The notes below the pieces were generated by a model. The model was not told where the DNA came from. It searched no databases and worked only from the letters and a program-made list of their open reading frames with translations. 64,000 nt of DNA from Eledone cirrhosa. Taxonomy: Eukaryota. The position numbers were made by a program, and so were the translations under genes. Location of the stretch: the NCBI GenBank assembly GCA_964016885.1, contig OZ024743.1, forward strand, positions 55,738,001 through 55,802,000, read 5' to 3'. Shown one piece after another: positions 24,482 through 63,786 of this stretch. Each line of letters begins with the position of its first letter. The first letter of the stretch is position 1.

Positions 24482-25464
<983 letters not shown>

Positions 25465-25482
25465 ATTATATATATATAATTA

Positions 25483-25637
25483 TTAATATAGAAATGGCCT
25501 CTACAGGACTAAAACTGTTTAATTCGAAGGATGAAACAGTTCTAATCCTGTAGAAGCCATTTCTATATTAAACATTTATACTCTGCTATGTATTGAGTAC
25601 CTTGTCTACTGTGGTTACCTCCGATTGAACCCCGGAT
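25483..25637 (+). mobile_element. Short fold-back PLE-like terminus (38-bp arms plus tail) with HHR 3' half
   Basis: 25483-25520 pairs with 25534-25571; GAA-ACAG...CTGT-A; tail resembles the reverse complement of 63830-63860. Confidence 0.7.
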
Positions 25638-25708
25638 ACACACATATATATATAACTATATACACACATATATATATAACTATATACACACATATATATA
25701 TAACTATA

Positions 25709-26490
25709 GGAAGCCGGTCGGAGTATTGCTTAAAGCTTTCTCTGTTAATGTATTAAATATTATACTCTTGATTTGGCCAGGGATGAATATTTCCAGATAC
25801 CTTTTACGTATGACTTTCCGTATTTATTCTTTGTATGAAATATTGATTGTTCTTGCGGTATCTTATCTCTGTTTTTAGCCTAAGAAAATACCTATATGCG
25901 TGTATAAATAATACATGCATATATTTATTTTTTTATATCCAATTGAGTTCTTCACACGCAAGGTTAAATTTATTGAAAGAATTAATTGACCCGCGTGCAT
26001 ATTATTTTATTCTCTTATATTTTGCGATGACCTCCCCTTTCCCTTTCCGCTTGATGGCAGTGTGAGATTTCTCATTCTGAGACTGCTGGAATTTCAAATT
26101 TGGCGGTCATTCTGACACGGAAGGGCACCATCTCTGAACATTAATATCGGTAAGGGTTTTTTTTATATCGATATTTGACGGGCATCCACTGATGATTTAT
26201 AAGTGCCCACCTACATATATTCCTACCGACTATGTGTAGGCTTCTACATAACCTGGACATGATTTTCCCAATTTGTAGAAAACTTATAATGAAACAATTG
26301 TTTGGAAAGAGAGATGTATTTTAATTATGTCTCATATAAAATAATACAACTGGCTATCCGCAAAATACGTATAGTTAGCACCCCAAACGTAAAATTGGGA
26401 TTATACTAAGGTATATCCTAATGTTTGTTGAGTGAGATGGAAGCCGGTCGGAGTATTGCTTAAAGCTTTCTCTGTTAATGTATTAAATAT
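25709..26490 (+). mobile_element. Non-coding PLE-like partial-tandem element (52-bp direct repeat, offset 730)
   Basis: GGAAGCCGGTCGGAGTATTGCTTAAAGCTTTCTCTGTTAATGTATTAAATAT at 25709 and 26439; contains an HHR; relative at 63571-63749. Confidence 0.8.
26185..26306 (+). ncRNA. Type I hammerhead ribozyme with branched stem II
   Basis: TCCA-CTGATGA-tTTATAAGT[two hairpins]ACTTATAAt-GAA-ACAATTGT-T-TGGA. Confidence 0.75.
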
Positions 26491-26651
26491 ATAACTATAT
26501 TTATATAAACGGAAAAATGAAACGAAATTTCATTTCTCACTCTTAGTACGGCTGTTACTTAAATATAAGTATGTATACGTACATACATATATGTATACAG
26601 ACGTACAGTAGTATGTATATATACATACATGCACACATATATATATGTACG

Positions 26652-27312: not shown

Positions 27313-27351
<39 letters not shown>

Positions 27352-27425
27352 GAACAGATTAAAGTTTAAAAAAAGAATCGCTGCTTTCAACCTTAACGGA
27401 TTTTAGACGTCACATTTATTATTAC

Positions 27426-38638: not shown

Positions 38639-38643
<5 letters not shown>

Positions 38644-38974
38644 CTTCAAAATATTAATAAATATAGACATTCATGTGATCAAATATATTTTATTATACAT
38701 ATTTCAGAGGCACTGAGCTATTTCATCAGTACGTCCTCATCAGATAAAATAAATTGATGTCTGACATACCTCAACTGTGCTGATGGTTCAATTCCAGTCT
38801 TGGCAGTTGAGGTATGTCAGACATCAATTTATTTTATCTGATGAGGACGTACTCTATATTTATTAATATTTTGAAGTAATATTAATAACTCCAGAAAACC
38901 TCTTTGTTGAGTGCTTCTAATCTATTGTAAAACTTTATTCATTGATTAATCAATGAACCTTGTTAAACTTTTGG

Positions 38975-38975
<1 letters not shown>
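38639..38975. mobile_element. Fold-back HHR element between (TA)n tracts
   Basis: Perfect 50-bp arms 38728-38777 / 38804-38853 plus outer arms; homologous to 59450-59750. Confidence 0.9.
38686..38751 (-). ncRNA. Type I hammerhead ribozyme
   Basis: TATTTTAT-CTGATGA-GGAcGTACTGA..TCAGTGCcTCT-GAA-ATATGTAT-A-ATAAAATA. Confidence 0.85.
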
Positions 38976-39072
<97 letters not shown>

Positions 39073-43882: not shown

Positions 43883-43942
<60 letters not shown>

Positions 43943-44343
43943 AATTTATATCTAGTAACATTTATATACACACAGATGCACATCAATGCTAGCAAATATA
44001 TAGGTTTTGTCTTATTAACAATGTGCTTCAATGCATGGGGTTGCAGAACAATAATATGAGAGACGTAAAATAAGAAAATTATAAAATTAACTTACTTACT
44101 AAAAAATCACTTCCAACTAATTAGTTTCTGGAATGGAGTAAATATATTTTCCGAAGAAACATATGGAAAATCATTCCGTCATCAGGAAAGTCTTTTCCGT
44201 ATAGGTCTCCAAGCATAGCGAGGACACTGGAAACTTATTAGAAAAATAATTCAGTGGAATGGAAATAGCGAAGCGTGGACTGGATTCCAAGCCATTGAGA
44301 AAATCACTGCCTCTACGTCTGTGGCAAATTCAAAAAGAATCAA

Positions 44344-44391
<48 letters not shown>

Positions 44392-44866: not shown

Positions 44867-45273
<407 letters not shown>

Positions 45274-45289
45274 TGTGTGTGTGTAAAAG

Positions 45290-45639
45290 GTAAACAGAAA
45301 TAACAACACAATCGGTACAGTATATGGAAGGTATATATTAGGTTAACGCTTGATACAGCAGGAAGAGGGTCTTAACGTTTCGGACGCTAGTCCTTCATCA
45401 GAAGAAAGATTGAGAAATAAAATAGATTGAGGAGACGGGCGGGATGGAATTGGAAAAAATGTCTTTAGATAAAAATAACAGGTCCATTCATGTTGACATC
45501 TCTTGCAAAACTGTTGGTGCTGGCGTTTTGTGCATGATTTGATTTTTAGAAAAGTGGAAGATGGCGTTCGTCCACCTGAAATGGAAAAAAAAAACGTTTT
45601 GTAAAAAGAGCTATACTAGAGCACGTGCGTAAGCATGAG

Positions 45640-45737
<98 letters not shown>

Positions 45738-46549
45738 TGTGTGTGTCTTATTATAGGTCCGTACGAAGCTAAGAAGAAATATGTGTGTATATGTGAGTAA
45801 AAGAGTGTGTGTGCATGTAAGTACGAAGCTATGAGAAAAATTATGTTAATATAAGGGTGTGTATCGGCATGTATTAGTAGTAAGAGAAGCTGCTAATGAT
45901 CAAGAGAAAGCGATAGGAATCTAGGGCTGTGATAATGGACGGGGTATTAGAGAAATTGGGGAGGTGAGTTGAGTCCAAGAGGGGAATAGGACCCAAGACG
46001 GTGAATCAGACTTTGTTCAGTCCTGGTGCGCGAGGCCTGTGATCCATGATGTAAAAGGACACCCAGGACTGAAACATGTAGGGAAGAATGACCAGGACTG
46101 AAACATGTAGGGAAGAATGACCAGAGATGACGGGCGACAGGAGTATCCAAACCGAGTCGTATGTCCCTCAAATATATCGGACAAACGGTACGCCACACGG
46201 CGTCCCGTTTGTCCGATATATAAAGACCCGCAAAGAGAACACCGGAGGGCATAGACAACGTGGGTGAATGTGCAGGTGAAGGAATAGCGGATACGGAAAG
46301 ACTCGTTAGAACCTGTAAGAGTGGTGAGGGTGGAAATAAAGGGACAAGTGTTGCAGCGGGAACGGGAACAAGAATGAGAGCCGGGTGGAGTCGTGGGAGA
46401 GGACGAAAAAGAACTGCGAACCACGAGGTCGCGGAGGTTTCGGGCGCATTTAAAAGCAGTAATGGGTGGGTTTGGAAAAAAGCGAGAACTGACGGGGTCA
46501 GAAGTGAGGATACGGAAGGAACGGAGGTAATGTCGCCGAAGTGGTAGGG

Positions 46550-46552: not shown

Positions 46553-46623
<71 letters not shown>

Positions 46624-46852
46624 AAATGTTCGCTCTACATGGCTGAATACAATAAATGTAATCTGAGATTTTCGAATATTAATAATAACATTCGATTCGT
46701 TTGCAATGATCAGTGGATCTGCTAATATGCAGATCTGACTGATCAGCCAGTCTGCTAATATGCAAATCAGGCCGATTAGTCACTGTGTATTTTTGAAAAT
46801 AGCATATATTTTCACTAGCTCTGACAGTTTGGCAGGTGAACAGTGAGCTGTA

Positions 46853-46884
46853 CTGATGAAGGGTGATACCCAGAAACATTAGTG
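46853..46884 (+). ncRNA. Degenerate HHR-like motif
   Basis: CTGATGA-A-GGGT-GAT-ACCC-A-GAAACATT; stem I not evident. Confidence 0.35.
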
Positions 46885-47022
46885 TCTGCAGTTCTGTTCA
46901 CATGCCAACACAAGAGCAAGAATGAAGGGTTCATTCTACTGACATGGCTATAAAATTGAAGCTTGTTTGCAAAATTGCAAACGAATCGAATGTTATTTTC
47001 GAAAAACTCAGATTACAGTTAT

Positions 47023-47195: not shown

Positions 47196-47636
47196 AAAAG
47201 TTTTATTTAAATTGTTGGGATACAACAAGCAAATATTTTTATAACTGATATAAAGCACTCGACAAATATTTGGAGTAGATATACGATATTAATAAATGGA
47301 AACTATATTTATAAAACCATATTTATTTCATTATATATATTTCAAGGATACCAAGTTACATTATGGTATGCCTTCATCAGACAAAATACAATATATAACA
47401 GTTTTATAAATAGACATTGACGTACCCCCTTTAAAAATTGACCGTTGTTTTTGGAGGCCTCCAAAAACAACGGTCAATTTTTAAAGGGGGTACGTCAATG
47501 TCTATTTATAAAACTGTTATATATTGTATTTTGTCTGATGAAGGCATACCATAATGTAACTTGGTATCCTTGAAATATATATAATGAAATAAATATGGTT
47601 TTATAAATATAGTTTCCATTTATTAATATCGTATAT
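47196..47636. mobile_element. Fold-back HHR element: 358-bp loopless palindrome (47279-47636) plus ~83-bp tail
   Basis: 179-bp arms centred on GGAGG|CCTCC, no mismatch seen; flanked by (TA)n. Confidence 0.93.
47527..47591 (+). ncRNA. Type I hammerhead ribozyme (mirror copy at 47324-47388, minus strand)
   Basis: TATTTTGT-CTGATGA-AGGcATACCA..TGGTATcCTT-GAA-ATATATAT-A-ATGAAATA. Confidence 0.85.
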
Positions 47637-47650
47637 ATATATATATATAT

Positions 47651-48377
47651 ATTTTGCAATACACTGTATGCTTAATTGAAAGCATTTTGAAGACCATACG
47701 CTATTGTTTTAAAATAGTGACAATGTCACTTATTTAAATCCTCAGCAAACAGGGGAGATACACTGACAGAGCTCTGTTTCGTACTTTTTGGTACTTATCA
47801 AAGTTCACTACCCCTCCTGTTTGCTGAAAATTATGTGTGTTGGATGCTTATAGAATTCCAGTAATAATCAGGAACTGATTATACAGAGCGGTCGCCGGTC
47901 CAGCAAAAATTGAAAATTAGAATTGGTGCTCTGAAATAGCGATATATATATATGAATGTCTATACAGTGTATTTTGCAATACACTGTATGCTTAATTAAA
48001 AGCATTTTGAAGACCATACGTTATTCTTTTAAAATAGTGACAATGTCACTTATTTAAATCGTCCTATGTCGCTATTTCAGAGCACCAATACTAATTTTCA
48101 ATTTCTGCTGAACCGGCGACTACTCTGAATAATCAATTCCTGATTATTACTGGAATTCTATAAGAATCCAACACACATAATTTTAAGCAAACAGGAGGGG
48201 TAGTGAACTTTGATAAGTACCAAAAAGTACGAAACAGAGCTCTGTCAGTTTATCTCCCCTGTTTGCTGAGGATTTAAATAAGTGACATTGTCACTATTTT
48301 AAAACAATAGCGTATGGTCTTCAAAATGCTTTTAATTAAGCATACACTGTATTGCAAAATACACTATATATACATTC

Positions 48378-48385
<8 letters not shown>
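47651..48385. mobile_element. Tripartite HHR element: ~290-bp copy (-), partial tandem copy (-), inverted copy (+)
   Basis: 47651-47942 is approximately the reverse complement of 48069-48360; 47970-48060 directly repeats 47651-47740. Confidence 0.9.
48186..48267 (+). ncRNA. Hammerhead ribozyme with U3-A8 core (mirror copy at 47744-47825, minus strand)
   Basis: AGCAAACAGG..GAACT-TTGATAA-GTAC-caaaaa-GTAC-GAA-ACAGAGCTCTGT-C-AGTTT..CCTGTTTGCT. Confidence 0.85.
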
Positions 48386-48998
<613 letters not shown>

Positions 48999-55011: not shown

Positions 55012-56250
55012 GGGTCATGTTGTCAATAACAACACACGCCCCTGCTGGTTTTCACTTCAATTTATTATAAATTTCCGGTTGGTTGGTTCGATAACCGGAA
55101 GGTTGTTTATATATTGTCAAACCTCTTTCGTCACACATTCTGTGACCTCCTCAGTGACTAGATTTTTATTTTGTGTGTCTCTCCTTTGTTCTGTCCTGCA
55201 CCATCTTGTTTTGTGTGTTGTGTGTTGTGTGTTGTGTGTTGTGTGCTGTGTGCTCAGTTTGCGCACGCACCACATCCTGGTGTGTGTGTGGGCCTTTACA
55301 TATGTGTTTATTTATTTGCGCAATGTGCATCAATACCACCCCTAGAGGCGAACTAGCTTATACATTTAGAAGGGCCCCAGAGAAGCTCAAATTAAATATT
55401 AAGATAGTTGAAAGACCAGGTATTCCCATATAAACCCTAATTGGCAAAACAAACCCATTTCAAAGATCCCCCTGTGCTGATAGGAAATGCATAGTTTGCA
55501 AGCTAAGCCACAAATTAACTGCAAAACTAGGAACGTGGTATATGGCATAAGATGTACTGAGGGACAGTGTAGGAATAAGGATATAACATACATAGCTGAA
55601 ACAATCTGTAGCACAGGAGAAAGAATAAGTAAACACTGGCGAGAGCTCCAGGTTGGAAAAAACTCATCAGTATTCCACCAACATGCCAAAATAAAACATA
55701 GGGGCACATTAGAGAACACACAGAAACGATGCAATGCTTGGACAAATGACGGAGGCAAGAAATATAAACGAATTCCAACTAAAATTAAACAGAGAGCATT
55801 TGTGGAATAGCAACACCACAAGTAGTAATTAAGGACGGACTGAAGACATAGAGACACACATGGAGACCAAACTAACAAAACAAATCAGACACATACCGAT
55901 AGAACAAACAACCGGCTAGTGACAAATAACTACACACATAAATGAATAAAGGCACACACACACACACACACACACTCACACACACACGCGCGCGCGCGCG
56001 CGGATGTGGCGCGTGCGCAAACTAAGCACACAACACACAACGCACAAAAACAAGATGGTGCAGGACAGAACAAAGGAGAAATACACAAAATAAAAACCCA
56101 GTCAGTGAGGAGGTCACAGCATGTGTGACGAAAAAGCTTTGACAATATATAAACAACCTTCCGGTTATCGGACCAGCCAACCAACCGGAGATTTATAATA
56201 AATTGAAGTGAAAATTTGGGGTGCGTGTGTTTTTATTGACAACATGACCC
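55012..56250 (+). mobile_element. 5'-truncated PLE with GIY-YIG remnant and inverted pLTRs, each carrying an HHR
   Basis: INCKTRNVVYGIRC...TYIAET...ERISKH; 55012-55305 inverted relative to 55933-56250; HHRs at 55116-55158 (-) and 56101-56143 (+). Confidence 0.9.
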
Positions 56251-59449: not shown

Positions 59450-59750
59450 TAAAAGCACTCTACAAAGAAGTTTTCTGGAGTTATTAATATTATTCAAAAT
59501 ATTAATAAAAGAAGACAATCACATAATCAAAATATATGTTTTATTATATATATTTCGAAGGTACTGTCCTGTTTTTTCAGTACATCCTCGTCAGATAAAA
59601 TACACGAATTGATGTATGACATACCTCAACTGTTTTGATGGTTCAATTCCAGTATTGGCAGTACTACCAACAGTACCTTCGAAATATATATAATAAAACA
59701 TATATTTTGATTATGTGAATGTCTTCATTTATTAATATTTTGAATATATA
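59450..59750. mobile_element. Fold-back HHR element of the 38639 family
   Basis: Minus-strand HHR at 59539-59600: TTTTAT-CTGACGA-GGAtGTACTG..CAGTACcTTC-GAA-ATATATAT-A-ATAAAA; inverted arm at 59670-59750. Confidence 0.88.
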
Positions 59751-61199: not shown

Positions 61200-63120
61200 C
61201 TCAATGTTTACCATTGACTGACCAACGGTCAAAAATACAGATATAATATAGATACAAACACATATATATAGTCTAACAAAGTTCTTTCGTTGCACATCTG
61301 CAACATCGTCAGTGGTGCTATTATGTTTCCTCCTGTTGTATTGTATGTCTACGCCATCTTTATTTAATCTGTTTATTTATTTATTTATTTATTTTTATCT
61401 TCTTCTCTGCGCATGCGTTTGCGTGTGTGTATAGTGTTTGATGTGTGTTCGCGTTTGGGTGACTGTGTTTTAAGTTTACGAGTGTGTGTTTATATGTGTT
61501 TGTTGTTATTGTGCTTGTCTATATATTTATTTATCTATTTATTTATATTTCTCTTAGGTCAGTATTGCTTGTTTGGGTGTTGTTATTCCATTCATTTTTT
61601 CTGTTTAGCTTTGACCTTCTATGTTCTATTTCACTGGCCTCTCTGATTTGCCTATCTGCTGGGTCATTTCTATGTTTAATATTATTTTAATTTCTATGTT
61701 GTCTATGTTACCGTCATGTTGTTGTCTGGCATGTTCGTATAGTACTGAACCATTTTTTCTTCCTTTTAGTTCCACCCAGTGTTGGTCTATCCTTTCACTT
61801 ATGCTACGAGCTGTCTCGCCTATGTATGTTTTTGTCATGTTTCTGCAAGTACCCTCTGTACATCTTATGCTATAGACTACGTTTCTAGTTTTACAGTTTA
61901 TCCAGGGGTTAACTTTACATATAATACATTTCCTATTAGTACAGTGGGTTTTCTTAAAAGGGTATGTTTTGCTGATCAGGGATTTTATGGTGGTTCCTGG
62001 CTTTTCTACCACCTTAATCTTTAGGTGGGTCTTTCTCAGGGCCTTTCTACACTGCTTAGCTAATTTCCCTCCAGGGGTAGCGTCCACGAACATGACACTC
62101 TGGTATCTCTAGTTGTCATACCATGAGGTGGCTTTCCCTATCTTATGTTTAGTCCTATCTAAACTATTCCATGATTTGCTCCTGTATAATGGGCAAATTC
62201 CTTTCATGACCAGTTCTATGAGGGTCTTATACTTACCCGTGGCTCCTTCGTATACTCTGATTCTGTCTCTTTGGTTGATGAAGTGTTGGAGGTGTCTTTC
62301 CATTTTTGTTGGGTCGCACATGCGGGACAAGTTCTTCATCACTCGTACCAAGTCTGCGATCAGAATATTAAACTTAGCACTACTGGACATTGCTGAGTTC
62401 TTGAGTATCAGATATTTGGAGGCCATGGGTTTAGTGTAGTGTGAGTGAAGAATTTGGGCTATCCCGTCTATAGTGTTAATCCAGAGTTCCGTGTCTAATA
62501 CAGGTAGTCTATTGTTAAGGTGTCCTTATTACTATATTAATGTCGTCTACATAACGAGAGTACATGATGAGGTCTATGGAGCTCTCATCAAGGAGATCTT
62601 TGAGTCTCCTTTCCCACCATACCATAAAAAGGTTGGCAACGTCACCAGCTATGCTGACGCCAATGGCTGCTCCCTCATTTTGGGTGTAGATCTTCTCGTT
62701 GAATTTGAATATGTGGCCTTTTAGGGTAGTTTTAATACTAGCCCCTATTGCATGTGCGACCATTTTTCTTACCTGATCATTGTTTTGGGGGGTCCGTATG
62801 GCTTTGGTCCACCAATCCACCTTCCCATGGGAGTCTTTTTTGCCATTGAGGTTATGGTGGTAGGGTCTACCTCTTATGGGTCTATTGGGGCAGAAACGGC
62901 TAAGGTCATGGCTGTCTAGGTAGTCAATGTCATAAGTAAGTCTAAGTAGGAGGCCCAGTTCGTCTGTGGCGACGTCGCAGAACTCGACCTCACTCTCACT
63001 GATTATCTCCAAACATTTTTCCACACCAAAATCAATGTTAATGGATGGGTGTAGTGATACCACGTCCATACTGCCTATTATGCAGTTGGATGGTTTTTGC
63101 TTTTGTTGCACTCACTGATT
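61200..63120 (-). mobile_element. Penelope-like element: RT, thumb, Cys-rich linker, GIY-YIG, pLTR with HHR (61275-61316)
   Basis: GSMDVVSLHPSI, QNEGAAIG...ANLFM, YSRYVDD, CTNRKCIIC, NVVYSIRC...TYIGETAR; frameshifted; CTGACGA-T-GTTGCA-gatg-TGCAAC-GAAA. Confidence 0.93.
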
Positions 63121-63136
63121 CTGCTGATATATATAT

Positions 63137-63358
63137 AAATATTTATTAAAATACCAGATTAAAGTTTAAGCAAAGAATCGCTGCTTTTACCCTTAACGGG
63201 ATCTTCTGAAACTCAGAAGATCCCGTTAAGGATGAAAGCAGCGATTCTTTGCTTAAACTTTAATCTGTTATTTTAATAAATATTTGCTCTACGGTTCTTA
63301 TATATTTGATATATATTTATCCTTATCGAGCCCGCTTTGGATTTTAGTCTTCAAATTT
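63137..63358 (+). mobile_element. Fold-back element (73-bp arms, 3-nt loop) plus tail, with HHR 3' half
   Basis: 63137-63209 pairs with 63213-63285; ATCC..GGAT-GAA-AGCA..TGCT-T; related fragment at 27350-27410. Confidence 0.8.
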
Positions 63359-63367
63359 ATTATTATT

Positions 63368-63545
63368 ATGGCAGTATCTGTAGAAGGTCGGACGCCATGC
63401 TTTGACGCATAGAGTTACGACCCTTGCCATTCTGAGTTCAAATCCCGCCGAGGTTAACTTTGCCTTTCATCCTTATGGGATCGATAAAATAAAGTACCAG
63501 TAATACACTGGGTAATTGCTGGCCTTGTGCCAAAAGTAGAAACAA
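63368..63545 (+). mobile_element. SINE with Meta/Nin-like domain
   Basis: Matches 22770-22985. Confidence 0.85.
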
Positions 63546-63570
63546 ATATATATATATATATATATAAATA

Positions 63571-63746
63571 AATACAATATCGGAGAAAGCTTTTTAGCGA
63601 TACTCCGGCCAAATTCCAACTCACTCAACAAACATTAGGAAATAAGTGATTATATTCCCAATTATGCGTTCGGGTTGCTAACTAAAAGTATTGCGTGGAA
63701 AATTGCCTGTATTATTTCATATGAGACATATCGAATATATCTCTTC

Positions 63747-63749
<3 letters not shown>
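63571..63749 (-). mobile_element. Diverged copy of 26303-26490 between (TA)n tracts
   Basis: Shared TATGTCTCATAT.AAATAATACA, TAGTTAGCA.CCC.AACG, CCTAATGTTTGTTGAGTGAG.TGGAA, CGGAGTAT.GCT.AAAGCTTTCTC. Confidence 0.85.

Positions 63750-63786
<37 letters not shown>

What the first reader, a model, noticed from the sequence alone, without database searches (positions are those of the whole stretch)
26185..26490. A second copy begins at the predicted ribozyme cleavage site
Seen: the HHR at 26185-26306 predicts cleavage after GUU at 26302, leaving a 3' product that starts TGGAAAGAGAGATG. The diverged copy at 63571-63749 (minus strand) starts TGGGAAGAGATAT directly after (TA)n and runs to the same 3' end (GTATT). 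Inference: that insertion was reverse transcribed from a self-cleaved RNA, which would be genomic evidence that the ribozyme defines the template 5' end in vivo.
Basis: partly seen in the sequence, partly recalled or inferred. Interest (0 to 1): 0.8.

Follow-up and report, generated by a model that had tools for sequence, protein, structure and literature searches.

The report
Truncated retroelement copy at ribozyme site
A short scrap of a hammerhead-bearing, likely Penelope-type jumping element does start at the ribozyme's predicted cut site, but most relatives run straight through that site, so this single case may be ordinary truncation and does not show that the ribozyme cuts in living cells.

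Summary
A type I minimal hammerhead motif lies at 26185-26306 (predicted cut after 26302). A 179-bp copy at 63749-63571 (77% identical, between (TA)n runs) begins at that site, give or take 1-2 bases, and shares the family's fixed 3' end. The element is a non-coding 730-bp unit with a 52-bp partial upstream repeat, most likely a non-autonomous Penelope-like element.

The inference is unproven. Copy 1 itself spans the cut site, and its own 5' junction lies 136 bases downstream of it. In public contigs of three organisms, depth just upstream of the cut is 0.95-1.06 of the highest downstream bin, and no loose end at the cut is among the 24 of 421 shown. In the window, 1 of 17 arms of hammerhead-bearing inserts starts at its cut; chance gives this in roughly 4-30% of cases.

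The ribozyme therefore does not set the 5' end as a rule. A minority class made by run-off at a self-cleaved end is not excluded (about 0.4 for this copy). No genome assembly was available for the decisive tally of 5' ends.

The parts
25709..25760 (+). 52-bp upstream partial repeat (pseudo-LTR-like), identical to 26439-26490; its 5' junction lies 136 nt downstream of the predicted cut site
   Evidence: blastn 52 of 52 identical; follows a TA-rich 24-bp tandem at 25636-25708
25761..26490 (+). 730-bp non-coding unit (copy 1), head-to-tail with the upstream partial repeat
   Evidence: longest stop-free stretch 72 aa, no tblastn match to the window's Penelope-type protein remnants; covered along its length by overlapping contigs of diverged copies in run X1; 74 reads (one start) of run X9 join 26438 to 25709, i.e. 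another locus has a longer upstream repeat
26185..26306 (+). type I minimal hammerhead ribozyme motif with long stem II insertion and palindromic stem III; predicted cut between 26302 and 26303
   Evidence: descriptor hit against 0 in 100 shuffled windows; active-type fold -24.7 versus minimum -27.9 kcal/mol; cleavage untested
26303..26490 (+). 188-nt segment from predicted cut to the fixed 3' end of the family (inferred start of reverse transcription)
   Evidence: over 99% of X1 depth at 26494, 26495 and 26501 reads as TA repeat, so family 3' ends are fixed and followed by (TA)n
63571..63749 (-). copy 2: 179-bp 5'-truncated copy of a diverged subfamily that starts at the predicted cut site (within 1-2 nt)
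   Evidence: 144 of 186 columns identical; letters like those of this subfamily appear in loose ends of runs X5 and X6
63750..63785 (.). (TA)n run at the 5' junction of copy 2
   Evidence: TRF 18.5 copies of AT over 63749-63785
63546..63570 (.). TA run at the 3' junction of copy 2, at the end of an unrelated interspersed repeat (63369-63545)
   Evidence: three other copies of that repeat end at the same place without the insert

Best explanation
The 179-bp copy is a 5'-truncated member of a non-coding, hammerhead-bearing repeat family, likely mobilised by a Penelope-like element, and its start at the predicted cut site is most likely an ordinary truncation point rather than the family's programmed template end. 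Shown: fixed 3' end followed by (TA)n, a head-to-tail 730-bp unit, variable 5' ends, and copies that span the cut site. Inferred: a Penelope-type protein nicks AT-rich DNA and starts reverse transcription at the fixed 3' end (26484-26490). It usually continues through the ribozyme on an uncut, multimeric or re-ligated RNA and stops at variable points, where the cDNA is joined to the TA-rich target, here with one base of microhomology. Inferred from the literature: the ribozyme, with its palindromic stem III and U.U at the base of stem II, would cut slowly and mainly as a dimer.
For: Copy 1 spans the cut and its own 5' junction is at +136. Depth in the 29-nt bin before the cut versus after it: 174,877 vs 109,913 (X1), 92.9 vs 29.2 (X5), 211 vs 96 (X6); before-cut depth is 0.95, 1.06 and 1.04 of the highest downstream bin. 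Single-position depth in X1 is 48,965 at 26272 and 48,263 at 26316. No loose end at 26301-26305 among the 24 of 421 shown. 1 of 17 arms in 7 hammerhead-bearing families of the window starts at its cut; the chance of at least one is 0.035-0.32 over the assumptions tried. Both junctions of this family fall at a T|GG of the template, one of them not a ribozyme site (n=2, noticed afterwards). In the Anolis element, unprocessed RNA was the dominant substrate in vitro and no RNA-seq ends were found at the cut site (PMC11167929).
Against: Any single end has only about a 1-2% chance of landing within 1-2 bases of the cut (my arithmetic). Summed contig depth is not copy number: it varies about fivefold within the body, the stretch 26310-26325 is variable, and the 80% likeness floor loses copies as diverged as copy 2 (77%), so a minority class would be missed. 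397 loose ends were not shown. The 17 arms are not independent and are biased to arms that carry the ribozyme; among the 5 arms without a complete ribozyme, 1 starts at the cut. X6 record 19 (179 letters, aligned from its letter 14 at 26320) would start at the cut if it has copy 2's spacing, but its first letters are not shown and a graph break explains it equally. No autonomous partner was linked by sequence.
Confidence: 0.55

Rival explanations
1. Copy 2 records a minority pathway. The RNA was cut by the hammerhead, reverse transcription started internally 188 nt downstream, ran off the 5'-OH end and was integrated without jumping to another template. Longer copies come from uncut or ligated RNA, or from a successful jump.
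For: Junction within 1-2 bases of the predicted site and a clean unrelated flank. The stem III letters are kept across many copies: 187 of 237 X9 molecules end at the AATT of stem III. Internal initiation downstream of the ribozyme is shown for the Anolis element (PMC11167929). Ribozyme-set 5' junctions are established for R2 (PMC3774820, abstract). X6 record 19 is compatible but inconclusive.
Against: One case. No loose end at the cut among 24 of 421 shown and no gain in depth after it. 16 of 17 arms in the window start elsewhere. Metazoan minimal hammerheads cleave poorly in vitro (PMC4209133; 1 of 9 retrozyme dimers cleaved in 10.64898/2026.07.22.740005).
Confidence: 0.37
2. [quoted passage not shown]
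For: Copy 2 has exactly this shape.
Against: Depth just upstream of the cut matches the highest depth downstream in three organisms; 4 listed contigs span the cut (X1 record 8, X5 records 14 and 15, X6 record 18); copy 1 spans it.
Confidence: 0.04
3. Copy 2 was once longer and lost its upstream part after insertion, by deletion or by a second insertion into the TA run.
For: The copy is diverged (77% identity) and the window holds many rearranged TA-flanked inserts.
Against: No trace of upstream element sequence in the 215 bases of flank held; TA runs on both sides are the usual form of these inserts.
Confidence: 0.04

Closest known systems
Hammerhead-bearing pseudo-LTRs and 5'-truncated partial tandems of EN+ Penelope-like elements (Cervera and de la Pena 2014, PMC4209133; Craig et al. 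2021, PMC8557442)
   Same: Type I minimal hammerhead with 4-bp stem I, long stem II and palindromic stem III; a 5'-truncated upstream partial repeat; frequent 5' truncation; insertion in microsatellites.
   Different: No RT-endonuclease ORF; U.U instead of the G10.1-C11.1 pair; stem II carries two extra hairpins; no autonomous partner identified by sequence.
Non-LTR retrozymes of animals (Cervera and de la Pena 2020, PMC7229834; Li et al. 2026, 10.64898/2026.07.22.740005)
   Same: Non-coding head-to-tail unit with one type I hammerhead per unit; 730 bp lies inside the 51-972 bp range reported; proposed to move with Penelope-type proteins.
   Different: Only 1.07 units at this locus, so it fails the two-complete-ribozymes definition; circular RNA untested.
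Poseidon element of Anolis, PAc (Frangieh et al. 2024, PMC11167929)
   Same: Fixed copy ends downstream of a hammerhead, consistent with internal initiation; AT-rich targets.
   Different: PAc is autonomous, with the ORF starting in the ribozyme. In the text I read the authors report no RNA ends at the cut site and give no tally of genomic 5' junctions there.
R2 retrotransposon HDV-like ribozyme (Eickbush et al. 2013, PMC3774820)
   Different: Different ribozyme and element class; the ribozyme is at the element's 5' end, whereas here it is internal and most copies span it.

Membership tests
Type I minimal hammerhead ribozyme of metazoan PLEs | Core CUGANGA, GAAA and UH in type I order | tested here: met
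   26189-95, 26291-94, 26301-02; 0 hits in 100 shuffled windows
Type I minimal hammerhead ribozyme of metazoan PLEs | Helix I of 4-5 bp and helix II of 7-8 bp | tested here: met
   4 bp and 8 bp; sizes from PMC4209133
Type I minimal hammerhead ribozyme of metazoan PLEs | Palindromic positions 15.2-16.2 and loop 3 (dimer form) | tested here: met
   CAAUUG; two copies of 26291-26306 pair with each other at -12.4 kcal/mol
Type I minimal hammerhead ribozyme of metazoan PLEs | Conserved G10.1-C11.1 pair | tested here: not met
   U26196 faces U26290 at the base of stem II; a U.U mismatch there is described for an axolotl hammerhead (PMC7229834)
Type I minimal hammerhead ribozyme of metazoan PLEs | Match to a curated Rfam hammerhead model | tested here: not met
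   none at gathering score in the window, none among 16 matches up to E 10
Type I minimal hammerhead ribozyme of metazoan PLEs | Self-cleavage | not testable with these tools
   needs in vitro transcription
Non-autonomous Penelope-like element | Partial tandem: 5'-truncated copy upstream of the unit (pseudo-LTR) | tested here: met
   52-bp identical repeat; longer version at another locus (74 reads, one start)
Non-autonomous Penelope-like element | Fixed 3' end, variable 5' ends, microsatellite targets | tested here: met
   3' ends run into (TA)n in over 99% of X1 depth; 5' ends at the cut, at +136, and loose ends at 26082 and 26156
Non-autonomous Penelope-like element | Sequence shared with the terminal repeat of an autonomous RT plus GIY-YIG element | tested here: inconclusive
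   no link to the remnants in this window; no genome or repeat library to search
Non-LTR retrozyme | [quoted passage not shown] | tested here: not met
   one ribozyme, 782 bp = 1.07 units at this locus; other loci not seen in full
Non-LTR retrozyme | Expressed as unit-length linear and circular RNA | not tested
   only contigs and DNA reads were laid; needs RNA experiments
R2-type ribozyme-defined 5' end | Most genomic 5' junctions coincide with the cleavage site | tested here: not met
   no gain in depth after the cut in three organisms; 1 of 3 pieces of this family in the window

The most novel reading that the evidence does not exclude
A discrete class of genomic copies of this family begins at the hammerhead cut site. 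They are fossils of internal-initiation cDNAs that ran off a self-cleaved RNA and failed to jump templates, so genome sequence alone would measure in vivo cleavage by Penelope-type hammerheads and test whether longer copies arise by jumping or from ligated circles.
Probability: 0.35. Interest if true: 0.62.

Novelty: new member of a known kind. Interest (0 to 1): 0.3.

Why it matters
The role of the hammerhead in Penelope-like elements is an open question: one paper calls it unclear and raises the possibility that the ribozymes merely parasitise the elements (PMC8557442), and the in vitro system of PMC11167929 did not need cleavage. A peak of genomic 5' junctions at the cut site would be cheap, direct evidence of cleavage during mobilisation. 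This family looks abundant, has a fixed 3' end and a cut site 188 nt upstream of it, so it suits the test. The single copy does not supply that evidence.

Tried and rejected
No whole genome is held, so copies could not be collected. A 21-base motif shared by both copies found nothing in metagenome, viral or prokaryote collections. A gapped ribozyme pattern gave 28 metagenome loci: none resembles the family by blastn and none has both stems of 4 bp or more, so all 28 were dropped. Sequencing runs: no RNA holder listed. Of 11 listed runs 4 were laid; X2, X3, X4, X7, X8, X10 and X11 were not. Molecule ends in the reduced-representation run X9 cannot be used: 6 of 8 listed fall on AATT or CATG (that these are restriction sites is recalled knowledge). 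Rfam gave no hammerhead and nothing meaningful for the 24583-25399 family; three copies of that family showed no two-sided pair changes, so it was left out of the arm count. The idea that copy 2 continues upstream beyond the TA run was rejected. No earlier notes on this sequence or genome; one word look-up found nothing. Supplement search of PMC11167929 found no text, so its Fig. S2 on copy ends was not seen; supplements of the 2026 preprint were not seen either. Lunse et al. (dimer cleavage) is not held and was seen only as cited in PMC6765202.

Full report
1. The observation. The window is microsatellite-rich DNA (147 tandem-repeat rows), by its look an animal genome; no call names the organism. 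At 26185-26306 lies a type I hammerhead motif: stem I TCCA/TGGA, CTGATGA, an 8-bp stem II that closes two more hairpins, GAAA, palindromic CAATTG and the triplet GUU, which puts the cut between 26302 and 26303. A strict descriptor gives 4 hits in the window and 0 in 100 locally shuffled windows; 1 of 2000 shuffles of the element gave a hit. The active-type fold is 3.2 kcal/mol above the minimum, the base of stem II is U.U rather than G-C, and no Rfam hammerhead model matches. Cleavage is therefore predicted, not shown.

Copy 2 (63749-63571, minus) aligns to 26303-26484 at 144 of 186 columns and lies between TA runs. Its first T may belong to the target, and local alignments start only at 26310, so the junction is fixed to 1-2 bases. 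Its upstream flank is unrelated to the element.

2. What the element is. Copy 1 is a 730-bp non-coding unit (25761-26490) preceded by an identical 52-bp copy of its own 3' end (25709-25760). Four of 11 listed public runs were laid on 25694-26563; X1 may be the sample behind the window and so is not independent. They show a repeat family in three organisms. The 3' end is fixed and runs into (TA)n. Reads of another locus continue at least 46 bases further upstream in the repeat (74 reads, one start), so the unit is joined head to tail. This is the partial-tandem, 5'-truncated, microsatellite-targeted form described for Penelope-like elements (PMC8557442, passages) with their minimal hammerhead (PMC4209133, parts 1-2 of 4). 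It is close to the non-LTR retrozymes (PMC7229834, passages; 10.64898/2026.07.22.740005, parts 1-3 of 5) but has only one ribozyme at this locus. I found no sequence link to an autonomous element, so the Penelope assignment rests on structure.

3. Do copies start at the cut? The direct tally was impossible (no genome; collection scans empty or chance hits). Three indirect tests were run.

(a) Depth. If cut-start copies dominated, depth would jump after 26302. It falls instead: 174,877 to 109,913 (X1), 92.9 to 29.2 (X5), 211 to 96 (X6), and the bin before the cut is 0.95, 1.06 and 1.04 of the highest downstream bin. Further upstream depth declines, with the main drop in X1 near 26158. Summed contig depth is not copy number and varies about fivefold within the body, the stretch after the cut is variable, and copies under 80% alike are lost. 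The test therefore excludes a dominant class only.

(b) Loose ends. None lies at 26301-26305 among the 24 shown of 421. One hint points the other way: X6 record 19 has 13 unaligned letters before 26320 and would start at the cut with copy 2's spacing, but the letters are not shown and contig starts are often graph breaks. Molecule ends in X9 fall mostly on AATT or CATG (6 of 8) and were discarded as products of the library's digest.

(c) The window itself. It holds seven hammerhead-bearing insert families with 17 arms: 14 start upstream of their cut, 2 downstream (+87, +136) and 1 at it. Three families pass only the relaxed descriptor, paired arms are not independent, the count favours arms that carry the ribozyme, and the 24583-25399 family was left out. 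Among the 5 arms without a complete ribozyme, 1 starts at the cut. The chance of at least one hit is 0.035-0.32 for 13-15 ends and about 0.05-0.12 for 5 ends over 200 bases (my arithmetic). Both junctions of this family fall at T|GG, one of them away from the ribozyme; this is a weak, after-the-fact hint of a sequence preference.

4. Mechanism. Inferred: a Penelope-type protein nicks AT-rich DNA and starts reverse transcription at the fixed 3' end. Internal initiation downstream of the hammerhead is shown for the Anolis element, where uncut RNA was the main substrate and no RNA ends were found at the cut (PMC11167929, parts 1-2 of 4). Copy 1 needs a template that is continuous across the cut and longer than one unit: uncut tandem RNA, a ligated circle (proposed in PMC4209133 and in PMC6765202, passages), or a template jump. 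Copy 2 is either a chance stop (0.55) or run-off at a self-cleaved end (0.37). The R2 situation, where the ribozyme sets 5' junctions (PMC3774820, abstract), does not hold as a rule here (0.04); later loss of the upstream part is unlikely (0.04).

5. Novelty. The element is a new member of a known kind. In the listings and passages I saw from searches, I found no paper that tallies genomic 5' junctions at a Penelope hammerhead; the library lacks most subscription papers, and I could not see Fig. S2 of PMC11167929 or the supplements of the 2026 preprint. Two unchecked notes of this scan describe like single cases in other genomes, one calling the site only mildly favoured genome-wide; they are leads, not support.

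6. Verdict. Observation confirmed; the general inference not supported; the single-copy inference open. Interest 0.3. The bold reading, a measurable minority class of cut-start copies, has probability about 0.35, would merit about 0.6, and can be settled with one assembly.

Noticed in passing
window 43940-44345 (-), 46619-47022 (+), 45284-45410 (-): Three further strict type I hammerhead motifs (predicted cuts at 44114, 46887, 45373). Two sit in TA-flanked non-coding inserts and one follows a GIY-YIG-like remnant (recognised by eye; no Pfam hit) at 45947-46549 before a (CA)n run.
   Followed up: partly
window 38642-38976, 59453-59743, 47197-48850, 55012-56250: Palindromic (5'-inverted) inserts with hammerhead motifs on one or both arms, found only by the relaxed descriptor; the arm starting at 38804 has a deletion that removes its cut site.
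   Followed up: partly
window 24583-25399 and 44955-45154: TA-flanked non-coding element with 200-bp direct repeats and a third partial copy. It carries a conserved CUGA(U/C)GA box on the minus strand but no GAAA; Rfam finds nothing. Possibly a degenerate or unusual ribozyme.
   Followed up: partly
window 61626-63111 (-) and 55338-55718 (+): Broken Penelope-type RT plus GIY-YIG remnant (Pfam RVT_1 E 3e-4, GIY-YIG E 7e-4, both under the curated cut-off) 460 bases downstream of copy 2 on the same strand; no sequence link to the family.
   Followed up: partly
window 63138-63284 and 27347-27399: Palindromic insert and TA-flanked fragment whose 3' ends resemble the last 36 bases of this family (80% identity), suggesting a related family with a similar start signal for reverse transcription.
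   Followed up: no
window 26129-26186: Laid depth rises about sixfold (X1) just upstream of the ribozyme, with loose ends at 26156-26158 in X1 (11 contigs) and X6. Many relatives share the ribozyme region but not the 25761-26157 interior, or are truncated there.
   Followed up: no
window 25881-25935: Internal inverted repeat in the unit; contigs of X5 and X6 match 25874-25958 and then run into unrelated sequence, so this piece may also belong to another repeat.
   Followed up: no
window 26506-26563: The downstream flank is a very abundant repeat (summed depth over one million in X1) with no second copy in the window.
   Followed up: no
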